A stretch of DNA of 64,000 nucleotides from an uncultured Alphaproteobacteria bacterium (GTDB lineage Bacteria > Pseudomonadota > Alphaproteobacteria > ATCC43930 > CGMCC-115725): assembly GCA_963729845.1 (NCBI GenBank), contig CAVSQC010000013.1, positions 23,261-87,260 of the forward strand. The letters are read 5' to 3'. Shown here one piece after another: positions 9,087-33,890 of the stretch. A model generated the notes under the pieces. That model saw nothing but the letters and a program-made list of their open reading frames with translations. It made no database searches and was not told where the DNA came from. The position numbers and the translations under genes were made by a program. Position 1 is the first letter of the stretch. Each line of letters starts with the position of its first letter.

Positions 9087-10188
9087 TGGTGGTGCGCGTG
9101 ATGATCGTGATGCGCGTGCATCATCGGGTCGGCGGCGGGCTAGCCAGAACAGGACGACAGCGACGATGCCGAAAACGATGTTCAGCCAGAACGTATAGTT
9201 GAACGAGAACTGCACCATCGCGGCGTGCATGTCGGGGCGGCGCGCCGGCACCAGGCCGAGCGCGTTGAACGACGACATCCATGGCGAGCGCCGCCGCGAC
9301 CATCGTGGCGTAGAACACGCCGCCGATATACGCCGCCATCCTCCAGCCGAAATAGCGCCGATACACGTCGAGCAGCGGCAGCACGATCAGATCGGCGTAG
9401 AGAAACGCCAGCACGCCGCCGAAGCTGACGCCCGAACCCCACAGCACCGCCGCCATCGGCACGTTGCCGATCGAGCACACGAAGGACAGGATCGCGACCG
9501 CCGGCCCGAGCAGCGCGTTGGCGGGGATTTGCACCCAGGGGCTGGCGCCCTCGACGAACAGGGTTCGCCACACGCCGTCCGGCACAAACGCCGACAGGGC
9601 GCCGGCGATGACGAAGCCGAGCAGCAAATCCTTCCACAACATGCTCCAATCCATCGCGAAGGCTTGCGCCACCCGTATCCAGACGGAGCCGCCGGCTATG
9701 TCATGGTTGTGATCGTGGCCCCGATGCGGTTCGGGGTGATGGCGCGCGGCTTCGACAAGCGCGCGCGGATAGGTGACGCGCACTAGCACCGCCATGATCG
9801 AGATCAGCACTACCCCACCGATCCATTCGCCGGCCGTGAATTCCCAGCCCATCAGCACATAGAGCACGATGCCGAGTTCGATCACGAGATTGGTCGAGGC
9901 CAGCAGGAAGGCGAGGGCGGGTGTCAGCGCCGCGCCCTTCTTGAACAGCGTCCGCGTCACCGCGGCGGCGGCGTACGAGCAGCTCGAGCTCGCGGCGCCG
10001 GCGACGGTGGCAAGCGCAATCTCGCACACGCCGTTGCGGCCGAGCGCCGAGGCGATGCGCTCCTTCGAGACGAACACTTGCAGCACGGCGGAGATGGCGA
10101 AGCCCAGCACCAGGCTCCAGCCGACCTGCCAGAACATGCCCGCGGCCATCAGCAGCGCGTCGGCGACGCGCGGGACGAAATCAGCCAT
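9080..10188 (-). pseudogene. Permease (COG0701/ArsP-like) with His-rich C-terminal tail, frame broken twice
   Basis: MADFVPRV... multi-TM protein. Frame breaks at ~9280 and ~9110. The tail [12 protein letters not shown] ends at 9080. The ATG overlaps the upstream regulator stop (ATGGCTGA). Confidence 0.7.
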
Positions 10189-24768: not shown

Positions 24769-24945
24769 ATGGCCAGCGCGCTGTTCAACGACAACAAGAT
24801 GAAGCTCGGCGTGTTCGGGCCGAATGTCAGCCACGGCTACGCGGCGACGTCGCGCGCGTGTTACCCGCCACCCGAAATGTTGCTCGTATGCTCGCGACAT
24901 TTCTTCCCTCCCCCTCAAGGGAGGGAAGGAATGCGCCGGCGATGA
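24769..24945 (+). pseudogene. N-terminal remnant of an LLM-class (luciferase-like) flavin monooxygenase
   Basis: Good SD (AAGGGGAAGG) and MASALFNDNKMKLGVFGPNVSHG, typical of LLM N-termini. After about 28 codons the ORF runs into a REP hairpin and ends. Confidence 0.45.
24903..24928. repeat. REP family C hairpin (CTTCCCTCC-CCCTCAAG-GGAGGGAAG)
   Basis: Related palindromes lie at 26636-26758, 30803-30826 and 49437-49463. Confidence 0.75.
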
Positions 24946-26553
24946 GTTTCGATTACATCGTCATCGGCGCCGGGTCGGCGGGTTGCGTCGTGGCGAGCCG
25001 CCTGAGCGAGGATCCGTCGGCGCGGGTACTACTGCTCGAGGCGGGCGGCAAGCCCGACAGTCTGTGGGTCTCGATGCCGTCGGGCGTCGGCAAGCTGATC
25101 GAGCCGAACAAATTCAACTGGGGCTACAACAGCGAGCCCGAGCCCTATCTCGGCAACCGCACCATCTACGTGCCGCGCGGCAAGGGCCTGGGCGGCTCGA
25201 GCCTGATCAACGGCATGGCCTATGTCCGCGGCCATCCGCAGGATTATGACGGCTGGCGCCAGATGGGCAATCGCGGCTGGGGCTGGGACGATGTCCTGCC
25301 CTATTTCAAGAAATCGCAGCATCGCGTCGCGGCCGGCGGGAACGCCGACCCCGCGTTTCACGGCGCCGGCGGCCGGCTTCACGTCACCGATCCGCTGCAT
25401 CATCCGGCGTCGCGCGACTTCATCGAGGCCGGCGTGCGGCTCGGCCTGCCGCGTAATCCCGACTACAACGCGGCCCAGCAGGAAGGCATCGGCTTTCTGC
25501 AATTCACCATCCGCGATGGCCGCCGTCACAGCACATCGGCCGCGTTTCTCGCCGACGCCGCGCGGCGGCCGAACCTCACGATCGCGACCGAGGCGCTGGT
25601 GCGGCGCATCGTCTTCGACGGCAAACGCGCCACCGGCGTCGAATATCGCGCGCGGCGGCGAGACGCGCATCGAGACGGCCGCGCGCGAGGTGATCCTTTG
25701 CGCGGGCGCGATCGATTCACCCAAGCTGCTGATGCTGTCGGGCATCGGCCCGGGCGCGGCGTTGCAGGAGCAGGGCATTGCCCCGGTCCACGATCTGCCC
25801 GGCGTCGGCCGCAACCTGCAGGACCATCTCTATGTCCACTACACCGCGGATTCGACACCGGACAGTTCGATCAACGCCGAACTGCATGGGCTGCGCCTGC
25901 TGTATCACGGCGCCTATTATTTGCTGACGCGGAGCGGCGTGTTGACGCTCGGCTCGTCGCAGGCCTGCGCCTGGGTGCGCATCCTGCCCGGCGCCGACCG
26001 GCCCGACCTACAGATTTTCTTCCGCCCGGTGAGCTGGGAGTTCAGCCCGTCCGGCACGCTGGAGATCGGGCGCACGCCGTCGGTCTCGGCCTCGTGCAGC
26101 CCGATCCGTCCGCATTCGCGCGGCTGGATCGGCTTGCGCTCGCCCGACCCGGCGGCGCCGGCGAAGATCGTGCCGAACTATCTCGAGGCGGTGCCCGACC
26201 GCATCGCGGCGGTGAAGGGTTTCGCCCTGATACGCCGCATCATGGCGACCGAGCCGATGAAGTCGCGCATCGTGCGCGAGCGGTTTCCCGGGCCCGATTG
26301 CGCCACCGAGGACGATATCCTCGCCCATGTCCGCAACACCGTGCAGTCGCAGCATCACTGGGCCGGCTCGTGCAAGATGGGTAACGATTCGATGGCGGTG
26401 GTGGACGACCAGTTACGCGTCCATGGCGTCGAAGGCGTGCGCGTGATCGACGCCTCGATCATGCCGACGGTTTCCGCCGGCAACACCAACGCGCCGACCA
26501 TCATGATCGGCGAAAAGGGCGCCGACCTGATCAAGGGCCGCGCCGCCGCCTGA
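24942..26553 (+). pseudogene. GMC-family oxidoreductase (choline dehydrogenase-like), frame break near 25651
   Basis: MSFDYIVIGAGSAGCVVASRL FAD motif. Continues (GGETRIETAAREVILCAGAIDSPKLL ... HWAGSCKMG) in ORF 25222-26553. Confidence 0.8.
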
Positions 26554-26635: not shown

Positions 26636-26758
26636 TCGTCCCTCCCCCCTTGAGGGGGAGCGAGGAAATGCCGAGCGTCGGCGAGGCATTTCGAGTGGGG
26701 GGTGCAAGCGCGCCATACCCCCCACCCGGTCTCAGCCTTCGGCTTCGATCTTCCCTCC
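26636..26758. repeat. Cluster of REP family C palindromes
   Basis: CCCTCCCCCCTTGAGGGGGAG and TTCCCTCCCC... units. The last unit is split by the IS insertion. Confidence 0.7.
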
Positions 26759-26766
26759 CCCTCAAG

Positions 26767-26792
26767 GGGAACTCTCACCTTGACATAACATG
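26767..26792 (+). repeat. Left terminal inverted repeat GGGAACTCTCACCTTGACATAACATG
   Basis: Exact reverse complement of 30777-30802. The boundary is ambiguous by 1-2 nt because of the G run. Confidence 0.85.
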
Positions 26793-26890
26793 ATCTACCC
26801 ATAGTGTGACCGGACATTGCGAACGTCTCGGCACTCTACGGCTGGATCGGGCAGAGGAAAAGGTGATGGTTCCCTCCTTGAGAGGGAAAC

Positions 26891-27070
26891 ATGGAAAAGG
26901 AAATCGAGATTACGCGTGAAATGAAAATCGCCGGAGCGGCCATTATTGATGCTTCTTACGGGGTGGTCGACCAGGAGTTTCTTGCTGCACAGGTTTATAG
27001 TGCCATGGTCCGTATAGCTCTTGCCAAATCTCTGGTGGCATTGCTGCGTCAGCTCTCTTCTCGGCAATAA
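26891..27070 (+). CDS. Small hypothetical protein (59 aa, below the ORF-track cutoff)
   Basis: ATG preceded by GAGAGGGAAAC. MEKEIEITREMKIAGAAIIDASYGVVDQEFLAAQVYSAMVRIALAKS looks like a folded helical protein. It overlaps the 3' end of the opposite-strand ORF by 128 nt. Confidence 0.4.
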   Translation: MEKEIEITREMKIAGAAIIDASYGVVDQEFLAAQVYSAMVRIALAKSLVALLRQLSSRQ

Positions 27071-27527
27071 CCGCGATACGAATAGCTATCGCGCGCAAAT
27101 CCCGCGCAGCCGCACGAATGTCGTTTACGTTAAAATGAGTGACCTCGTAGTGCGCCGCTGTTTTCGCGGTATGAAGATTTTTTATGCGAGGGCCGTCTGA
27201 TGTAATCTCAAGCGTTCTGTGATTTAGGCGGTCTCGTAGCTCGCCGATTAGATTGTATTGGGTAGCAAGGAGGTCAAATTCGGCTTGGTCCGACTTGCCG
27301 ATTTCCAACAAATATCTGGTGATGGATATAACGTCAGATACGCGCTGGCCGCCAAAGATAGCGCGCGCGCGTGTCATGTCGGTTCCAGATTGTAGTTTGC
27401 ACAGAGTATTGAAGAGATTTCCGACAGTGGCGTATCTCTCACTCAAATGGCCTAACGCATGATATAATTCAGCGTCAGGGTCATCCTTAATTGCTGGTGG
27501 TGCCAGCGGAGGATTTATCGACGACAT
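26943..27527 (-). CDS. Hypothetical all-helical protein with an Rx4H (HEPN-like) motif
   Basis: 194 aa from ATG 27527 (ORF extends to TTG 27539). ELRDRLNHR matches the HEPN Rx4-6H signature in a helix-rich context. Long ORF in AT-rich DNA. Confidence 0.6.
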   Translation of the reverse strand: MSSINPPLAPPAIKDDPDAELYHALGHLSERYATVGNLFNTLCKLQSGTDMTRARAIFGGQRVSDVISITRYLLEIGKSDQAEFDLLATQYNLIGELRDRLNHRTLEITSDGPRIKNLHTAKTAAHYEVTHFNVNDIRAAARDLRAIAIRIAVIAEKRADAAMPPEIWQELYGPWHYKPVQQETPGRPPRKKHQ

Positions 27528-27738
27528 GCGTGCGCCCAAGAAAGTACAGAAAACCGGAAGCGAAATCCGCTCCGATGCTTGGGAGCGATTCGTGATGGCT
27601 GTGGGCTACGCGGTCAAGACCCCAGCGATGCACCGCGAAAGCAAGAAAGAGCGGCCAGCGAGTAAGGGGCGCGTACGTAAGGGCAAGAGTTCGTGCTTAA
27701 AACAGCGCGCCTATTTGTTGTTTTTATCTCAGTACTAA
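27526..27738 (+). CDS. Small basic hypothetical protein (70 aa), doubtful
   Basis: Its ATG shares a CATG with the divergent ORF start. Its 3' end overlaps the GTG-start signal peptide of the protease, so only one of the two models can be fully right. Confidence 0.25.
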   Translation: MRAPKKVQKTGSEIRSDAWERFVMAVGYAVKTPAMHRESKKERPASKGRVRKGKSSCLKQRAYLLFLSQY

Positions 27739-28623
27739 TTGCCCACTCGGCCGTAAGCGCGGTTCTCCCGCCATTTATGTTGGATTGTGTCGTCGCGCTC
27801 GGTGGGATGGGCAATATCAATCCCCCCGATAAGCCGCCCAACATTCAATGGATAACGATTGGTACGGGATTCTTTTATGCCTACAAGACTGTCGATGATC
27901 CGGACCCGAAAAAACGGAAATATCAAGTCTACCTCGTCACGGCGGGGCATGTGATTTCGGAATTTTTAGAAACGAACAAGGGCGATTTATCCGTGAGGAT
28001 AAATTTGAAAGATCCATCTCAGCCCGCTCAAGACATTTAATATTCCCAGAAAACCGCCAACTGGCGAATCAACGTGGTTCTTCCATCCAAAATATCGCCA
28101 AGGTGTTGCTGATAATGATATTGCAGCAGTTTCAATTCGGTGGGATTCGATCAAGGATTTGGGTGTCGCCTATATTTTGAGCGATATACAGACTGCCGAC
28201 ATTGAGAAGCTAAAAGCCCTCAAAATTTCCGCCGGAGATGGAGCCTTTGTTCTTGGGTTTCCTTTGCAACTCGCGGGGGTACAACGCAGTTACGTTATCG
28301 TGCGAAACGGGATTGTCGCACGAGTAAGTGACATGCTTGACCATACCTCTGGGACATTTCTCATGGACTCCTTTGTATTCCCCGGGAACAGCGGAAGCCC
28401 TGCCATTCTCAGACCGGAAATAGTATCAATTGAAGGTACGTCAGCAAATAATGCGGCGTATCTCATGGGAATTGTCGAAGGCTATTTGGCCTATTCAGAC
28501 ATTGCGATAAGTATGCAGACGCATCACCAGCGTATCACCTTTGAGGAAAATTCCGGGCTGGCAGAAATAATCCCCATGGATCGCGTGAATGAGGCCATCA
28601 AGGCGAGCGGGACATTGCCCTAG
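27693..28623 (+). pseudogene. Trypsin-like (S1/Trypsin_2) serine protease, probably exported, frame break near 28030
   Basis: Sec-type signal MLKTARLFVVFISVLIAHSAVSA. Catalytic triad contexts are TAGHVI, NDIAAV (readable only in the frame of 28159) and GNSGSP. Alternative cytoplasmic start at ATG 27777. Confidence 0.75.
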
Positions 28624-28913
28624 CTTTTACTGTTTGAATTCAAAGCTTTGAAAATTTCTTGAGCCGATATCTCCACGATTTTACCGCTATCGAAAATTAC
28701 TCTCATTCCTGTCAACTGGGTTAGATCAAGCACAGCCCAGTCCGGCATTTGAGAGATACCGCATGGGACATATTTTTCCGCCCCGCTCGCATCGCGTCCA
28801 TCGGCACAATAGGGACCGGATGATCCGCTGTCGGCGGCTTTCGCCATCATCCCCGGGATCAATGCTAGCGATGTAACCGACAGGATAGCGGAGCGCCGAT
28901 TTAATTTGCTCAT
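28620..28913 (-). CDS. Small exported protein (97 aa), unknown function
   Basis: Signal peptide with an RR motif (MSKLNRRSAILSVTSLALIPGMMAKA). Two Cys in the mature part. Its stop overlaps the protease stop (CTAG). Confidence 0.55.
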   Translation of the reverse strand: MSKLNRRSAILSVTSLALIPGMMAKAADSGSSGPYCADGRDASGAEKYVPCGISQMPDWAVLDLTQLTGMRVIFDSGKIVEISAQEIFKALNSNSKS

Positions 28914-29046
28914 AACAAACCCCTCGCATAAATTGCTCTTTGCGACGGGAAGGCTCCTGTCATCTCAGGCGGATCGGAAGTCCGCCGTACATCGTTGCCA
29001 CATAGCCGCATCGTGTACGCCCCTAGGCTACACGAACGGAATTGCT

Positions 29047-29424
29047 ATGTCCCCACTTTTTCAGGTTTGTGGTCGCTGTCCTTGCCGGACGCCTTTTCTG
29101 GCGAGTCCCGAAAATATACGGGCCGCACGGGAATTGCACTTTGTGGACCCACTGGACGATGGAATTAAAGAGATTGTCATTACCCTGATCGCCCACGGAA
29201 TTGAGACCTCGGAATCATGCGAGGGCGGTCCTGGTCATGCCTTCCCGGAACCCACAGTAAGATTCGAGGGCGATCAGCCTGAGGGGCTTAGGGCAGTTTC
29301 GGTCGCTTTAGCGTACGGGTTTCCAGTCACTCGGCTACGTCGCGCATGGGCGATAAAGGATGGGCTACTGCATGGACCGTGGTGGGAGATGACATTTGCC
29401 CCGCACAAGCCCATGCAGCAATAA
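29047..29424 (+). CDS. Hypothetical protein (125 aa) with N-terminal CGRCPC motif
   Basis: In-frame ATG within ORF 28906-29424. I recognise no family. Confidence 0.45.
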   Translation: MSPLFQVCGRCPCRTPFLASPENIRAARELHFVDPLDDGIKEIVITLIAHGIETSESCEGGPGHAFPEPTVRFEGDQPEGLRAVSVALAYGFPVTRLRRAWAIKDGLLHGPWWEMTFAPHKPMQQ

Positions 29425-29779
29425 GATCAGTTGCCCTTACGAGTTTCTTCCTGACATACGGTACACAGGCGATAGCCGCCGGTTCCCGCGCGCCGCTCAT
29501 GCTGGGGGATGTCTCGCCCCCGGAGCGCATGCGCTATTGTTGTGATGGACCTGTTGATTAGCAGGCTTCTTGCTTTCGTTGATTGAGTAAAATGCAGGCA
29601 CTACTGGCATGGTCGTTTCCTCGATTCCTGGCTAGGCGGCGCTCGCTCTTAGCTCGAACATAAGTAGGACTCCGCAACTTGAGCGAGTCAAGCGAATGAT
29701 AAGGGCCTACTTTTCCATGAATAGAAAGGCTAGTTGCCCTTCAGCCTCTAACCTTTCCCACTCGCGCGGCGGCGCGGGC

Positions 29780-30736
29780 CTACGCCTGATTGCGGTTTTC
29801 TTGCTCGCCGCAAGTCCGCCGATAAGTGAGACGGCGACCGACGATCCCCGGTAATGATTTCTGGAAGCGCTCGAAATCCGACACCTTCAACCCTTCACGT
29901 TCGTTGTAGCGGTAATCGAACTCGCCGAGATAGCGCTTCAGGTGTTGAGCGCTGACGCTGTGATAGGTGCCGGTGATCCCGCGTTTCAGGATCGAGAAAT
30001 AGCCTTCAATCGTGTTCGTGTGCGCGTCGCCGCGAACATACTCACCGATTGAGTGATTGACCTTCTGATGTTTCGGAAAATCGCGGTGCAGGTTGCGGTT
30101 CTCGCCCGCGTCATCCGTCATCAAGGCCGCGTCCATACTCAACTGTTCGTTCAAGATCGGGCGCAATGTGTCGGCGCTCACCGAAGGAACATGACGGGAG
30201 CGGACCTTGCCCTTGCGCTCGACCAGTGAATAGACAATCTCCTTGCCAGCGCCGCCGACCGCGCTGGTGCGCTTGTCGCGGTGCTTGTTCTTTTCCTTCC
30301 CACCAACATAGGTCGCGTCGCCCTCAACCGCCTTACCGCCGCCACCCATCTGCTCCAACACACGCGGCGGCAGGCTTTCACGGATACGGTGCATTAGGAA
30401 CCAAGACGACTTTTTGCTGATCCCGAGCAAGCGGCCAATTTCGAGCGAGCTAATGCCCTTCTTGCCAGCCATCAGCAATTGCGTTGCGGCGAGCCATTTG
30501 TGTAGCGGGATTTTGCTGCGCTCGTACAGGGTGCCGACTGTGACGGTGAACGGCTCGCGGCAAGCATTGCACTGGTAGAGGCCGGGACGATGGCTTTCGC
30601 CTTTTAGCAAGGTGGAATTGTCCACCACGCCACAATGCGGGCAGAACCGACCATGCGCCCAGATTTGCGCTTCCAGCCATTCGCGGGCCGCTTCCTCGTT
30701 GTGGAAGATCGGGTTTGACAAAAGTGCTTCGGACAT
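29780..30736 (-). CDS. IS1595-family transposase (zinc ribbon + ISXO2-like DDE domain)
   Basis: Uninterrupted 318 aa. N-terminal CPHCG...CNAC zinc ribbon, HKWLAATQLL, DATYVGGKEKNKH. The start is 41 nt inside the right IR. Confidence 0.9.
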   Translation of the reverse strand: MSEALLSNPIFHNEEAAREWLEAQIWAHGRFCPHCGVVDNSTLLKGESHRPGLYQCNACREPFTVTVGTLYERSKIPLHKWLAATQLLMAGKKGISSLEIGRLLGISKKSSWFLMHRIRESLPPRVLEQMGGGGKAVEGDATYVGGKEKNKHRDKRTSAVGGAGKEIVYSLVERKGKVRSRHVPSVSADTLRPILNEQLSMDAALMTDDAGENRNLHRDFPKHQKVNHSIGEYVRGDAHTNTIEGYFSILKRGITGTYHSVSAQHLKRYLGEFDYRYNEREGLKVSDFERFQKSLPGIVGRRLTYRRTCGEQENRNQA

Positions 30737-30776
30737 GCTCGGCTCCCTTGAATGAGGCCGATTACATCATGTTGTG

Positions 30777-30802
30777 CATGTTATGTCAAGGTGAGAGTTC
30801 CC
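30777..30802 (-). repeat. Right terminal inverted repeat
   Basis: Exact reverse complement of 26767-26792. Confidence 0.85.
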
Positions 30803-30836
30803 CCCTCAAGGGGGGAAGGGGAATCTAGGAGATGCC

Positions 30837-32670
30837 GTGACCGCAGCGCGCCGCCTGGCCGCAATTCTCGCCGTCGATGTCGCGGGCTATTCGCGGCTCA
30901 TGGGCGAGGACGAGGCCGGCACGGCCAAGGCCGTGCGCGAGCATCGCGAGGCGGCGCGGCCGGTGGTGCAGGGGCTTGGCGGCCGCATCGTCAAGACCAT
31001 GGGCGACGGCGTGCTGTTGGAATTTCCCTCGGTGGTCGCCGCCGTCGAATGCGCCATCGCCCTGCAGAAACTCATGGTCGGCCGTAATGCCGACGTGCCC
31101 GAGGGCAAGCGCATCGTCTATCGCATCGGCGTCCATCTCGGCGACGTGCTGATCGACGGCGACGATATTTTGGGCGACGGCGTCAACATCGCGGCGCGCC
31201 TCGAAGCCATCGCCGCGCCGGGCGGCATCTGTCTCTCCGGCATGGCGTATGAGTCCGTGCGCGGCAAGGTCGAGGCGGACTTCACCGATCTCGGCGAGCG
31301 CGAGTTGAAGAACATCGCCCGGCCCGTGCGGGTTTATGCGAGCGCGCCTCAAGACACTTCCGTCGTCCCCGCGAAAGCGGGGACCCAGGGCGACCGTGCG
31401 TCGCTAACCCTGATTCCCGCTTACGCGGGAATGACGAAAGTGGGGCGATGGCGCAAAAGGAAAATTCGCCGCCCCGTCTCTCCATCGTCGTGCTGCCGTT
31501 TGCCAATATTGGCGGCGACCCGGAGCAGGAATATTTCGTCGACGGCGTCACCGAGATCGCTCACTACCGACCTGTCACGCATCTCGGGAAGTTTCGTGAT
31601 CGCGCGCAACACGGCATTCACGTTCAAGAGCAAGCCGGTCGACGTGAAACAGATCGGGCGCGAGTTGAACGTGCGCTACCTCCTCGAAGGCTCGGTGCAG
31701 CGCGGCGGCAACCGCATGCGTGTCAACGTGCAGCTCATCGAAGCCGAGACCGGCATTCATCTTTGGGCCGAGCGCTTCGATAAGCCGGTGGCCGATCTCT
31801 TCGACATGCAAGACGAGATCGTTGCGTATCTTGCTAACCAGTTGAACACGCAACTCGTCGTTGCCGAGGCCCGTCGCGCGGAGCGGGCGCCGCTTCCCGA
31901 TTCGATGGACCTCTATTTCCAAGGCACTGCCTGCTTTCACAAGGGGTATAACCCCGAAAACCTCGCACAAGCACGCCGCTATTTCGAACGCGCCCTGGCG
32001 CTCGATCCCAACAATATCGAGGCGTTGGCGGGCGAGGCGCTGGTTGATGTTGTTATTGGCGGCGGTGTGATGAGCGAAGATCGCGTTCTCCGTATCGCCG
32101 CCGCTGAAGCTGCCGCAAACAAGGTGCTGTCAGTGGCACCGAACCACGCCCCCGCTCATTACATTTTGGGCTTTGTCCATATTGTTACCAACCGCGCGGC
32201 GCAGGGCATGGCCGAGTGCGAGCATGCGCTGGCATTAGACCGATAACCTAGCCGCAGCCCATGCGATGATAGGCCTCGCGAAATCCGTCCTTGGACGCGC
32301 GGAGGAAACGGAGGGCCATGTCCGCGAAGCGCTCCGGCTTAGCCCACGAGAAATTACCGCCAATTCGTGGATGCACCTCGCCGGCGGCGCCAAACTGGTT
32401 CTCGGCAGGGACCAAGAAGCGGTTGCCTGGCTGCGCCGGTCCATTGAGGCCAACCGAACTTACCCTCTCGCGCATTTCTATCTCGCCGCTGCCTTGGTTC
32501 ATCTCGACCGATTGGAGGAGGCGCGGGCCTCCGTGCAGACAGGACTGGTGCTGGATCCGACCTTCACCATCCGCCGCTACCGCGCAGGCGCATCGAGCGA
32601 CAATCCGACCTATCTGGCGCAGCGCGAACACATCTATGACGGCATGCGCAAGGCCGGGGTCCCGGAGGGT
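30837..32670 (+). pseudogene. Class III adenylate/guanylate cyclase domain + TolB-like + TPR protein, disrupted by a REP and frame breaks
   Basis: RRLAAILAVDVAGYSRLM ... GDGVNIAARLE cyclase domain. REP-B inside the linker. PRLSIVVLPFANIGGDPEQEYFVDGVTE is out of frame (own ATG at 31448). Breaks at 31556 and 32244. No stop after ...GVPEG. Confidence 0.75.
31361..31438. repeat. REP family B copy inside the cyclase reading frame
   Basis: Inverted copy of 5568-5646, translated as VVPAKAGTQGDRASLTLIPAYAGMTK. Confidence 0.8.
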
Positions 32671-32688
32671 GAGCCCGAAAAGCCCGCG

Positions 32689-33890
32689 CCGCCGCGCCTC
32701 TCCATCGTCGTGCTGCCCTTCGCCAATCTCGGCGGCGACCCGGAGCAGGAATATTTCGTCGACGGCGTCACCGAGATCGCTCACTACCGACCTGTCACGC
32801 ATCTCGGGCAAGTTTCGTGATCGCGCGCAACACGGCGTTTACCTACAAGGGCAAGCCTGTCGACGTGAAGCAGATCGGCCGCGACCTCAATATCCGCTAC
32901 GTCCTCGAAGGCTCGGTGCAGCGCGGCGGCAACCGCATGCGGGTCAATGTCCAGCTCATCGACGCCGAGACCGGCAACCACCTTTGGGCCGAGCGTTTCG
33001 ACAAGCCGGTCGCCGACCTCTTCGACATGCAGGACGAAATCGTCGCCCGCCTGGCGAATCAACTGAACGCCGAACTGATCGAAGCGGAAGCGCGGCGCGC
33101 CGAAAAAAAGCCAAATCCCAATTCAATGGATTTCTATTTCCAGGGGCGGGCTTGGTTGAACAAAGGCATCGCACCCGCCAATCTGACGCCAGCCGGTAAT
33201 TTCCTCGAACGGGCACTGGCACTCGACCCCGACAATGTGGAAGCGTTGGTCGCAACGGCATACCTTCGCGCGCTTCGCGCAGCAGCACGGCTGGCGGACG
33301 ACGTGACAACGTCGCTATCGGTCGCTGAAGAAAATTTGAACCGCGCTCTTATTATCGCACCGGACTATGCCCAGGCGCATCACGCCCTCGGCACGGTGTA
33401 CAACTCCACCAAACGCGCCGCGCTGGGCTTGTCCGAATGCGAACACGCGTTGACCCTCGACCGCAATTTAGCCATCGCTTATGGCGGCATGGGCCGCTCC
33501 AAATTATTGCTCGGTCGAGCCGAGGAAACGGAAAATCATGTGTTGGAAGCGCTCCGTCTCAGCCCGCGCGACAGTCTGGCCTTTGCCTGGATGAATGTCG
33601 CCGGTTATGCGAAATTGCTTCTCGGGCGCGATGAAGAGGCCATTGTGTGGCTGCGCCGCAGCATCGACAGAAATCGCAATCTGAACAATTCGCACTATTG
33701 GCTCGCCGTTGCGTTGACTCGGCTTGGACGGACCGAGGAAGCAAAGGCCGCCGCGCAGATCGCGCGCCAACTTAATCCCGACTTCGTCAAACGCTTGCGG
33801 TCGGATGTTTGGAGCGACGACCCGGTCTACCTCGCTCAATTTGAGCGGGTCATGGACGGTCTCCGCGCGGCGGGGTTGCCGGAAGGATAG
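32689..33890 (+). pseudogene. Tandem duplicate of the TolB-like + TPR module (no cyclase domain, no own start), two frame breaks
   Basis: PPRLSIVVLPFANLGGDPEQEYFVDGVTE / SLTTDLSRISG / FVIARNTAFTYKGKPVDVKQIGRDL... Breaks at 32776 and 32809. Ends at ...AAGLPEG TAG. Confidence 0.7.

What the first reader, a model, noticed from the sequence alone, without database searches (positions are those of the whole stretch)
26891..29424. Cargo of the transposon: HEPN-like protein, exported trypsin-like protease, small exported protein and two orphans, a candidate undescribed accessory system
The passenger block has four main parts. First, a 194-aa helix-rich protein with ELRDRLNHR, which fits the HEPN Rx4-6H RNase signature seen in AbiU2/AbiD-type abortive-infection proteins. 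Second, an S1/Trypsin_2 protease with triad contexts TAGHVI / NDIAAV / GNSGSP and a convincing Sec signal peptide. Third, a convergent 97-aa RR-signal protein whose stop overlaps the protease stop (CTAG); this could be a periplasmic inhibitor or partner. Fourth, a 125-aa protein with a CGRCPC motif. I cannot name any described defence, toxin-antitoxin or secretion module with this combination. Being carried on a mobile element makes a conflict-type function plausible (defence, toxin/immunity, or exported effector plus inhibitor), but that is inference. The protease frame is broken near 28030.
Basis: inference. Interest (0 to 1): 0.7.

Follow-up and report, generated by a model that had tools for sequence, protein, structure and literature searches.

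The report
Mosaic cargo of an IS1595 transposon
The flagged genes are a patchwork of unrelated passengers on a 4-kb IS1595-family transposon, not one four-part system; the HEPN-like gene and two small neighbours do form an uncharacterised trio that recurs in related transposons, and the protease is a broken gene.

Summary
A 4,036-bp IS1595-family element (26767-30802) has perfect 26-nt inverted repeats and an 8-bp target duplication.

The interpretation as one system does not hold.
- The protease belongs to a large family of stand-alone secreted S1 peptidases resembling the untested PADLOC candidate PDC-S45. An extra G at about 28033 breaks it here, and two other assemblies show the same break.
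- The 97-aa exported protein had no detectable relative in the limited searches run.
- The 125-aa CxxC protein has more than 100 relatives. They often lie next to other IS1595 transposases and never near the protease, ORF A, E or F.

The "HEPN-like" ORF A is a real family (282 representatives, invariant Rx4H). Its only recurrent Pfam hits are sub-threshold HEPN families, and a confident AlphaFold model matches no solved structure. A occurs with the small ORFs E (27526-27738) and F (26891-27070) in a fixed arrangement in many related transposons. Other cargo in those transposons is mostly methylases, nucleases and toxin-antitoxin parts.

Best reading: a transporter IS with two cargo slots. One holds an uncharacterised A/E/F module, probably an RNase-type addiction or defence module. 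The other holds decayed or orphan genes.

The parts
26759..26766 (.). Left copy of the 8-bp target-site duplication, CCCTCAAG
   Evidence: It is identical to 30803-30810. The target is a REP-like palindrome, CCCTCCCCCTCAAGGGG, also found at 24906 and 26646.
26767..26792 (+). Left terminal inverted repeat, GGGAACTCTCACCTTGACATAACATG
   Evidence: two exact copies in the window, none in 100 shuffles. Related elements end in GGG(G)AATTATCACCTTGACATAGTA.
26891..27070 (+). ORF F, 59 aa (MEKEIEITREMKIAGAA...). A conserved small ORF next to the IR, antisense to the 3' end of ORF A with a 128-nt overlap.
   Evidence: Homologues lie in the same position and orientation in 23 of the 80 transposase-selected loci, plus L086, L087 and L090. 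Variability is highest at codon position 3: 0.67 against 0.50/0.52.
26943..27539 (-). ORF A, 198 aa (194 aa from the ATG at 27527). HEPN-like protein with R102-x4-H107 and a C-terminal PWHYKP followed by a basic tail.
   Evidence: 282 family representatives at E<=1e-3, all about 190-220 aa. G30, R102, H107 and W179 are invariant; only HEPN Pfam families recur, all sub-threshold. AF2 pLDDT 94; no PDB match and one unnamed viral match; present in 26 of 62 IR-defined related elements.
27526..27738 (+). ORF E, 70 aa, a small basic protein (..SDAWERFVMAVGYAVKTPAMHRE.. then a K/R tail). It runs head-to-head with A, and the two start codons share a CATG. Its tail is extended here and overlaps the protease start.
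   Evidence: Homologues occur in 51 of 80 transposase-selected loci, almost always on the strand opposite the transposase. Variability is highest at codon position 3: 0.67 against 0.47. The copies of this element in other assemblies encode a 57-aa form.
27693..28623 (+). Secreted S1 (Trypsin_2) serine protease pseudogene. The signal peptide is MLKTARLFVVFISVLIAHSAVSA. The triad is H (TAGHV), D (DIAAV), S (GNSGSP). A 1-nt insertion (G) at about 28033 shifts the frame.
   Evidence: PADLOC PDC-S45 at 2e-16; the same frameshift in L091 and L092.
28620..28913 (-). ORF C, 97 aa. A predicted exported protein (N-R-R motif, AKA/AD cleavage site, two Cys) with a good Shine-Dalgarno sequence (GAGGGG). 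Its stop overlaps the protease stop.
   Evidence: The exact sequence is found only in copies of this same element. There is no relative in the 170 fetched loci or in plasmids, and no family hit.
29047..29424 (+). ORF D, 125 aa. A member of a widespread unnamed family: CxxCP-RTPF ... ETxESC(E/Q)GGxGH ... HGPWWEMTF. It lies tail-to-tail with the transposase.
   Evidence: 114 metagenomic relatives, up to 69% identical over the full length; an IS1595-family transposase lies nearby in 13 of 34 loci with long flanks, mostly in the same tail-to-tail arrangement; a homologue sits in the related element L024; conserved residues.
29780..30736 (-). IS1595-family transposase, 318 aa (Zn ribbon plus DDE domain)
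   Evidence: the best relative in GTDB genomes is 79% identical.
30777..30802 (-). Right terminal inverted repeat
30803..30810 (.). Right copy of the 8-bp target-site duplication, CCCTCAAG

Best explanation
The region is the passenger part of a 4,036-bp "transporter IS" of the IS1595 family, which inserted as one unit into a REP-like palindrome. Elements of this clade share one layout:

IR - transposase -> [slot 1] <- E [slot 2] IR

**Slot 2: the A/F pair.** Here slot 2 holds the clade's commonest passenger. ORF A runs head-to-head with E. ORF F runs antisense across A's 3' end. I infer that A is a metal-independent HEPN-type RNase that acts as a toxin or abortive-infection effector. I infer that E (small, basic) and/or F, or F's antisense transcript, hold A in check. 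On that view the trio stabilises the element or protects its host.

**Slot 1: unrelated acquisitions.**
- D, a small Cys/His protein that recurs beside IS1595 transposases.
- C, an orphan exported protein.
- A secreted S1 protease that a frameshift has already inactivated.

**Shown:** element boundaries and target duplication; the family-wide layout; lack of co-occurrence of the four parts; the frameshift; conservation of A, E, F and D.

**Inferred:** RNase activity of A, any toxin/antidote relationship, and any benefit to element or host.
For: **Unit transposition**
- Perfect IRs and an 8-bp duplication. An 8-bp duplication is typical of the IS1595 family (PMC8101967).

**Clade layout**
- 62 related elements with identifiable IRs all carry 0.9-5.2 kb beyond the transposase, median 1.7 kb.
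- E occurs in 51 of 80 transposase-selected loci, A-like ORFs in 29 and F in 23. Orientations are fixed: A on the transposase strand, E and F opposite, F overlapping A's 3' end beside the IR.
- Contigs found through A independently show the same E-A-F order (L086, L087) or A-F (L090, L174).

**A as HEPN-like**
- R102 and H107 are invariant, and E40, R108, N121 and D147 nearly so, across 119 sequences only 23-38% identical to ORF A.
- The three Pfam families hit by the most members are HEPN_Cthe2314 (7), HEPN_RiboL-PSP (6) and HEPN_LA2681 (5), plus HepT-like (1). The next family has 3.
- These hits align around the Rx4H region to the C-terminal part of the profiles.

**Conflict-type cargo in sister elements**
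- N6_N4 methylases, HNH, PIN, SocA_Panacea, Mrr_cat, GmrSD_N, DUF1828/mad2/PDC-M24B.

**Mosaic nature**
- Protease homologues are solitary.
- D relatives are linked to other IS1595 transposases and never to the protease, A, E or F.
- C has no detected relative in the loci and plasmids searched.

**Pseudogene**
- The extra G lies outside any homopolymer run and is reproduced in two other assemblies.
Against: - **No significant HEPN match.** All Pfam HEPN hits are below the gathering thresholds, and the window protein itself has none.
- **No structural support.** Foldseek of a pLDDT-94 model against the PDB finds nothing (best E 1.4). A PDB sequence profile finds nothing. hhalign against one bona fide HEPN protein finds nothing.
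- **Atypical motif position.** The motif sits at the C-terminal end of a long helix followed by a beta-hairpin. From memory, this may not be the canonical HEPN position.
- **Atypical gene order for a toxin-antitoxin pair.** Head-to-head A/E is unusual for type II modules.
- **A can occur without its partners.** It is found without E (L040, L047, L050, L090) and without E, F or an IS1595 transposase (L088).
- **E can occur without A.** About 25 loci show this, so E may serve the transposon rather than A.
- **No toxicity or defence data exist.**
- **Sampling bias.** Related loci were picked by similarity to this transposase, so the frequencies describe one clade only.
Confidence: 0.65

Rival explanations
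1. One reading: A, the protease, C and D form one undescribed multi-gene defence, toxin-immunity or secretion system carried by the transposon.
For: The genes are tightly packed inside one mobile unit. The protease and C share overlapping stops. The protease resembles the defence candidate PDC-S45. The closest related element, L006, also combines a serine protease (a different fold, SDH_protease) with a protein bearing an RNPIMH motif.
Against: There is no co-occurrence of any pair among A, the protease, C and D in about 170 loci retrieved through the protease, the transposase, A or D. The protease is frameshifted in all three assemblies. PDC-S45 is a single-gene candidate, and the homologues here are solitary.
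Confidence: 0.04
2. A, E and F are transposition accessory or regulatory factors of this IS clade. For example, they might handle DNA or RNA, choose targets or control copy number. On this view they are not a toxin or defence module.
For: E is the most widespread accessory gene and usually abuts the transposase 3' end. Orientation is fixed relative to the transposase and the IR. The sense and antisense overlaps (A/E starts, A/F 3' ends) resemble IS regulatory layouts. No element in the clade is cargo-free.
Against: A-like genes are present in only about 40% of elements. Unrelated modules (DUF1828 pair, methylases, DUF3800) replace them in the same slot. A also occurs in an integrase/GmrSD/restriction island with no IS1595 transposase. 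The IS1595 family is described as needing a single transposase gene (PMC8101967).
Confidence: 0.2
3. The protease and C are a still-functional exported enzyme-plus-partner pair. The frameshift would then be an assembly error or be bypassed during translation.
For: The catalytic triad and signal peptide are intact in both halves. C has a good ribosome-binding site and an export signal, and its stop overlaps the protease stop. The window's GMC oxidoreductase also looks frameshifted, so assembly indels are conceivable.
Against: The identical extra G is present in a Logan assembly of a separate run and in a 98%-identical strain. It lies outside any homopolymer run. No slippery-site context was seen. 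Neighbours of the closest protease homologues show no C-like partner.
Confidence: 0.06
4. ORF A is not a HEPN nuclease. Its Rx4H is a family-specific motif in a novel helical fold with another role, for example nucleic-acid or protein binding.
For: No PDB structural or sequence match despite a confident model. hhalign against one HEPN protein is negative. The beta-hairpin and the conserved PWxYKP tail are not HEPN features.
Against: Among 119 members, HEPN families are the only recurrent Pfam hits, 19 in all. The invariant R/H pair comes with conserved E40, N121 and D147, which suggests catalysis.
Confidence: 0.3

Closest known systems
Transporter IS (tIS) of the IS1595 family (Siguier, Gagnevin & Chandler 2009; ISNwi1-type ends, recalled from ISfinder)
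   Same: - Zn-ribbon plus DDE IS1595 transposase, terminal IRs starting GGG and an 8-bp target duplication.
- Passenger genes lie between the IRs (PMC11891212; PMC8101967).
   Different: - The conserved E/A/F passenger trio and the two-slot layout are not described in any paper I could read.
- The ISNwi1 subgroup assignment rests on my memory of the ISfinder end consensus, not on a test.
- The IRs of this copy differ at two positions from the clade consensus (AACTCTC against AATTATC).
HEPN-domain toxins and abortive-infection proteins (HEPN/MNT HepT, AbiD/F, AbiU2; Pfam HEPN_Cthe2314, HEPN_RiboL-PSP, HEPN_LA2681)
   Same: - About 200 aa, mostly helical, with an invariant R-[DN]-x3-H.
- Carried on mobile elements, with recurrent weak profile similarity.
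   Different: - No hit reaches a curated threshold, and there is no structural match.
- There is no MNT partner.
- The neighbours are a head-to-head small basic ORF and an antisense small ORF.
- It has an extra beta-hairpin and a conserved PWxYKP tail.
Toxin-antitoxin pairs built into Tn3-family transposons (PMC7157771)
   Same: Small conflict modules sit at a fixed place inside a transposon, next to the transposition genes, and are proposed to stabilise it.
   Different: - A different transposon family.
- Those modules are recognisable type II families in operon order.
- Here neither a toxin nor an antidote has been demonstrated.
PADLOC PDC-S45, an untested single-gene phage-defence candidate (bioRxiv 10.1101/2024.01.29.577857)
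   Same: - The repaired protease matches at 2e-16 over profile positions 37-249 of 293, and homologues match down to 2e-30.
- It is a stand-alone gene.
   Different: - The candidate has never been validated.
- This copy is frameshifted.
- The family carries a conserved Sec-type signal peptide, which fits a periplasmic or secreted enzyme better than an intracellular sensor.

Membership tests
IS1595 family insertion sequence / transporter IS | Transposase with an N-terminal Zn ribbon and a DDE_Tnp_IS1595 catalytic domain | tested here: met
   Pfam PF12762 at 2e-36 and PF12760 at 1e-10. NCBIfam NF033547 scores 169.7 bits against a cut-off of 75.
IS1595 family insertion sequence / transporter IS | Terminal inverted repeats flanked by an 8-bp target-site duplication | tested here: met
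   26-nt perfect IRs and CCCTCAAG on both sides. The family property is taken from PMC8101967.
IS1595 family insertion sequence / transporter IS | Passenger genes unrelated to transposition lie between the IRs (tIS definition) | tested here: met
   About 3 kb with six ORFs lies between the left IR and the transposase stop. The definition is taken from PMC11891212, citing Siguier 2009.
ISNwi1 subgroup of IS1595 | Ends of the type ggnnatTAT and phylogenetic placement with ISNwi1 | not testable with these tools
   The clade consensus GGG(G)AATTATCACC fits the end motif as I remember it from ISfinder. No ISfinder reference sequences were available.
HEPN superfamily (ORF A) | Conserved Rx4-6H motif | tested here: met
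   R102 and H107 are invariant in 119 sequences. The motif is R[DN]xL[VI]HR.
HEPN superfamily (ORF A) | Significant sequence-profile match to a HEPN family | tested here: not met
   The window protein has no Pfam hit at E<=1. Members hit HEPN_Cthe2314, RiboL-PSP, LA2681 and HepT only below threshold, with a best E of 0.0048. PADLOC, NCBIfam and PHROGs give no hit.
HEPN superfamily (ORF A) | Four-helix up-down bundle structurally similar to solved HEPN domains | tested here: inconclusive
   The AF2 model (pLDDT 94, pTM 0.86) has helices 23-51, 55-62, 67-81, 85-107 and 138-160 plus a beta-hairpin. Foldseek against the PDB gives a best E of 1.4 with no HEPN entry. BFVD gives one unnamed hit with TM 0.51/0.62. 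Coordinates could not be inspected, and Foldseek is weak on short helical bundles.
HEPN superfamily (ORF A) | Metal-independent RNase activity that depends on R and H | not testable with these tools
   Needs biochemistry.
Type II toxin-antitoxin module (A with E or F) | Co-directional two-gene operon, strict co-occurrence and a demonstrable antidote | tested here: not met
   A and E run head-to-head, and F is antisense. A occurs without E, and E without A, in many loci. Neutralisation cannot be tested here.
Peptidase family S1 (Trypsin_2) / PADLOC PDC-S45 (protease) | His-Asp-Ser triad in a chymotrypsin-fold domain and a profile match | tested here: met
   Homologues carry PF13365 and PF00089. 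The triad motifs are conserved. PDC-S45 matches at 2e-16. The window halves alone score below the Pfam cut-off.
Peptidase family S1 (Trypsin_2) / PADLOC PDC-S45 (protease) | Intact reading frame (a functional gene) | tested here: not met
   A +1 insertion at about 28033 is seen in three assemblies.

The most novel reading that the evidence does not exclude
The A/E/F trio could be a previously unrecognised module integral to the transposon. In this reading a HEPN-like RNase is controlled by a head-to-head small basic protein and an antisense-encoded small protein or RNA. A clade of alphaproteobacterial IS1595 elements would use it for their own retention, or to couple host killing or defence to the state of the element. 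This would parallel toxin-antitoxin modules in Tn3 transposons, or the retention role of TnpB in IS200/IS605. D would be a second, independent family associated with IS1595 accessory functions.
Probability: 0.2. Interest if true: 0.7.

Novelty: new variant of a known kind. Interest (0 to 1): 0.42.

Why it matters
If the A/E/F trio is an RNase-based addiction or defence module, then even IS-sized transposons of about 2.2-2.5 kb routinely carry conflict systems. It would also add a new HEPN-like family with at least 282 clusters at 50% identity.

The two-slot layout suggests these elements can shuttle small defence genes, such as methylases, HNH or PIN nucleases and mad2/PDC-M24B-like pairs, around alphaproteobacterial chromosomes.

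For genome annotation the practical result is negative. The apparent four-gene "system" should not be propagated, and the protease should be called a pseudogene.

Tried and rejected
- **Word-indexed search with A:** zero hits. Only the exhaustive HMMER search revealed the family. Repeating the indexed search with the family profile gave just 7 proteins.
- **Whole element against plasmids by megablast:** no match. A (both the window protein and the family consensus) and C found nothing by tblastn against plasmids. The A consensus was also negative against phages; C was not searched against phages. D gave one partial, unannotated Mesorhizobium plasmid hit.
- **PDB sequence profiles for A and D:** nothing.
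- **hhalign of the A profile against one HEPN_MAE_28990 protein:** nothing.
- **Single-sequence AF2 of D:** pLDDT 50, so it was not used for fold search.
- **Rfam and promoter/terminator scans of the element:** nothing above chance.
- **PHROGs on all small ORFs:** nothing.
- **C-like partner next to protease homologues:** the downstream ORFs in L005 and L002 are unrelated to C.
- **Frameshift as a homopolymer sequencing error:** considered and rejected. The inserted G is not in a homopolymer run, and other assemblies reproduce it.
Full report
**1. What is in the sequence**

The window averages 65% GC. Between about 26.8 and 30.8 kb it drops to 46-58%.

This low-GC stretch is bounded by perfect 26-nt inverted repeats at 26767-26792 and 30777-30802. 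Only two copies exist in the window, and none appeared in 100 shuffles. Each repeat is flanked by the same 8 bp, CCCTCAAG. The insertion target is a REP-like palindrome, CCCTCCCCCTCAAGGGG, that also occurs at 24906 and 26646.

The 318-aa ORF at 29780-30736(-) is an IS1595-family transposase. It matches Pfam DDE_Tnp_IS1595 at 2e-36 and Zn_ribbon_IS1595 at 1e-10. It scores 170 bits against NCBIfam transpos_IS1595, whose cut-off is 75. An 8-bp duplication is the family norm (PMC8101967). The 4,036-bp element therefore moved as one unit. It qualifies as a "transporter IS", meaning an IS that carries passenger genes (Siguier 2009, as cited in PMC11891212).

- A: 26943-27539(-)
- the protease in two frames: 27693-28040 and 28159-28623
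- C: 28620-28913(-), with its stop overlapping the protease stop in CTAG
- D: 29047-29424(+)

Two further small ORFs, F (26891-27070, +) and E (27526-27738, +), proved important.

**2. The protease**

I joined the two frames into a 309-aa sequence. It retrieves 1,228 homologues of 300-330 aa, the best 60% identical over 98% of its length. They are annotated S1 or Trypsin_2.

Homologues read ...SQTFNIPEKPP... where the window reads CAA-G-ACA-TTT, so the defect is a single inserted G at about 28033. The same base is present in a Logan contig from run ERR12036785 (L091, 99.9% identical over 2 kb). It is also present in an ENA contig of a 98%-identical strain that carries the element at the same chromosomal site (L092). 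The G is not in a homopolymer run. I therefore treat the gene as a genuine pseudogene.

Homologues keep an N-terminal hydrophobic segment ending in A-x-A, and the H/D/S triad. The family is therefore exported.

PDC systems are 145 untested "guilt-by-embedding" candidates (bioRxiv 10.1101/2024.01.29.577857).

In six contexts the homologue is a solitary gene among housekeeping or miscellaneous genes. Two of these look like defence islands: one with HNH, SNF2 and a methylase, and one with an nSTAND NTPase. None of the five contexts with DNA available encodes anything like A, C, D, E, F or the transposase.

**3. ORF A, the "HEPN-like" protein**

A has no Pfam, PADLOC, NCBIfam or PHROGs hit. The word-indexed protein search also found nothing.

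An exhaustive phmmer search of 1.84 billion cluster representatives did find the family. It gave 282 proteins at E<=1e-3 and 94 at E<=1e-10, all about 190-220 aa and aligned end to end, with at most 38% identity to A.

In a 119-sequence alignment:
- G30, R102, H107 and W179 are invariant.
- E40, R108, N121, D147 and Y181 are at least 90% conserved.
- The core motif is R-[DN]-x-L-[VI]-H-R.
- A PWxYKP motif followed by a basic, proline-rich tail closes the protein.

I scanned all 119 members against Pfam at E<=1. The three families hit by the most members are all HEPN: Cthe2314 (7 members), RiboL-PSP (6) and LA2681 (5). HepT-like adds one more. The next family has 3 members. The hits cover the region around the motif and align to the C-terminal part of the profiles. 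None reaches a gathering threshold.

AlphaFold2 with this alignment gives a confident model (pLDDT 94.1, pTM 0.86). It has helices at 23-51, 55-62, 67-81, 85-107 and 138-160, plus a beta-hairpin at 109-120.

Searches against known structures were negative:
- Foldseek finds no significant PDB match (best E 1.4).
- BFVD gives one unnamed viral protein (E 3e-3, TM 0.51/0.62).
- A PDB sequence profile finds nothing.
- hhalign against one HEPN_MAE_28990 protein finds nothing.

My verdict is that the motif criterion is met, remote sequence similarity points consistently to HEPN, and the fold is unconfirmed.

**4. A, E and F belong to the transposon clade**

I retrieved 80 genomic loci through the transposase, at 48-79% identity. 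In 62 related elements, counting L087, I could find IRs. Their consensus is GGG(G)AATTATCACCTTGACATAGTA. The elements are 1.9-6.2 kb long. Every one carries 0.9-5.2 kb beyond the transposase, with a median of 1.7 kb.

tblastn and jackhmmer on six-frame ORFs gave these counts among the 80 loci:
- E in 51, on the strand opposite the transposase except in 3 loci. It often directly abuts the transposase 3' end.
- A-like ORFs in 29, always on the transposase strand.
- F in 23, on the opposite strand beside the distal IR, overlapping A's 3' end by about 130-150 nt.

A profile search on called ORFs finds A-like genes in 26 of the 62 IR-defined elements.

Contigs reached independently through A-family proteins show the same order:
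- L087: transposase, two ORFs, E, A, F
- L086: E, A, F
- L090: transposase, small ORF, A, F
- L174: A plus an antisense ORF

One A homologue instead lies in an island with integrases, GmrSD, a HEPN_MAE_28990 protein and a restriction enzyme, with no IS1595 transposase.

E and F both vary most at codon position 3 (0.67 against about 0.5). This supports protein coding.

In the window, the A and E start codons share a CATG. Each gene's promoter must therefore lie inside the other gene or further upstream.

**5. What else these elements carry**

I scanned 142 cargo ORFs from the related elements. The Pfam hits were DUF1828 (6), N6_N4 methylase (5), HNH (4), SocA_Panacea (2), PIN (2), Mrr_cat (2), DUF3800 (2), GmrSD_N, Peptidase_M78 and SDH_protease. 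PADLOC labels the DUF1828 genes mad2/PDC-M24B and the methylases MTase_II.

The layout that fits all elements is:

IR - transposase -> [slot 1] <- E [slot 2] IR

Slot 2 holds A/F or an alternative such as the DUF1828 pair or DUF3800. The window has D, C and the protease in slot 1, and A/F in slot 2.

The closest relative, L006, has an SDH-type serine protease in slot 1. In slot 2 it has a 324-aa protein with RNPIMH near its C-terminus.

**6. D and C**

D has 114 relatives in soil and peat metagenome contigs, up to 69% identical over the whole 125 aa. The ATG at 29047 is therefore the real start.

Its invariant residues include ETxESC(E/Q)GGxGH and PWWEMTF, and the N-terminal CxxC is mostly conserved.

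An IS1595-family transposase, only 30-45% identical to the window's, lies in 23 of the 80 D loci. It lies in 13 of the 34 loci with at least 1.3 kb on both sides. It is usually tail-to-tail and downstream of D, as in the window. IS1595 transposase is also the top Pfam family among D's neighbours. A D homologue sits in slot 1 of the related element L024, beside a split methylase.

No D locus has the protease, A, E, F or C. D has no family or PDB match, and its single-sequence model is unusable.

C has a plausible Tat/Sec signal and a good Shine-Dalgarno sequence. Its exact sequence occurs only in copies of this element. No relative appeared in the fetched loci or in plasmids. C was not searched against the large protein databases, so its orphan status is provisional.

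**7. Mechanism**

Shown:
- a unit-transposing tIS
- a clade-wide E/A/F layout
- mosaic slot-1 cargo
- an inactivated protease

Inferred:
- A is an RNase of the HEPN kind acting as a toxin or abortive-infection effector.
- E (small, basic) and/or F, or F's antisense transcript, restrain A.
- The module stabilises the element or protects the host. This parallels the toxin-antitoxin pairs built into Tn3-family transposons (PMC7157771).

Weak points:
- There is no significant HEPN match.
- The gene order is atypical for toxin-antitoxin pairs.
- A and E each occur without the other.

A rival view is that E, and possibly A and F, serve transposition itself. I give that about 0.2.

**8. Verdict**

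The interpretation as one novel four-part system is not supported. The transposon-cargo and HEPN-like elements of it are partly supported.

The real residue of novelty is an uncharacterised HEPN-like family, with two small partner ORFs, tied to a clade of IS1595 transporter ISs. A second unnamed family, D, is also associated with IS1595 elements. Interest is moderate.

Noticed in passing
window 29047-29424; loci L094-L173, L024:8747-9055: ORF D defines a widespread, unnamed family of about 115-125 aa (CxxCP-RTPF, ETxESC(E/Q)GGxGH, HGPWWEMTF). It lies tail-to-tail with IS1595-family transposases of several diverged subgroups. A transposase is nearby in 13 of 34 loci with long flanks. D may be a second accessory gene linked to IS1595 elements.
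   Followed up: partly
L006:7411-8556 and L006:8813-9787; L064:4023-5015: The transposon with the closest transposase (79% identity) also pairs a serine protease with a protein bearing an RNPI[MA]H motif. Its protease has a different fold (ClpP-like SDH_protease), and the motif protein is 324 aa (phrog_32483). This may be a non-homologous parallel to the window's protease plus Rx4H protein, or it may be coincidence.
   Followed up: partly
L008, L011, L014, L017, L032, L069 (e.g. L008:8891-9670 and 9667-10185): Six related elements carry a two-gene cassette in the slot where the window has A/F. It consists of a DUF1828 protein of about 260 aa (PADLOC mad2/PDC-M24B) followed by an ORF of about 175 aa. 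This suggests interchangeable defence-type modules.
   Followed up: partly
window 24858-26553: The GMC-family oxidoreductase just upstream of the element is read in two overlapping frames, 24858-26384 and 25222-26553. This implies a frameshift near 25.6 kb. The related contig L092 also has the gene split. It could be a real pseudogene or an assembly indel.
   Followed up: no
window 24906-24922, 26640-26770, 30803-30825: REP-like GC-rich palindromes (CCCTCCCCCTCAAGGGG) are scattered in intergenic DNA. One pair forms a 21-nt inverted repeat with an 82-nt spacer (26646-26666 and 26749-26769). The transposon inserted into one arm of it.
   Followed up: partly
window 27690-27738: ORF E is 70 aa here, but 57 aa in the other assemblies of this same element and 56-58 aa in relatives. 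Its extended tail overlaps the protease start codon. This suggests the protease cassette was inserted right at the end of E.
   Followed up: no
window 30837-33890: Downstream of the element lie tandem paralogous genes. One has an adenylate/guanylate-cyclase-like N-terminus and TPR repeats. Repeated segments of the type ...LSIVVLPFANxGGDPEQEYFVDGVTEI... occur at about 31.45, 32.7 and 32.8 kb. In the related strain L092 this flank is only about 80% identical, while the element and the upstream flank are 98% identical.
   Followed up: no
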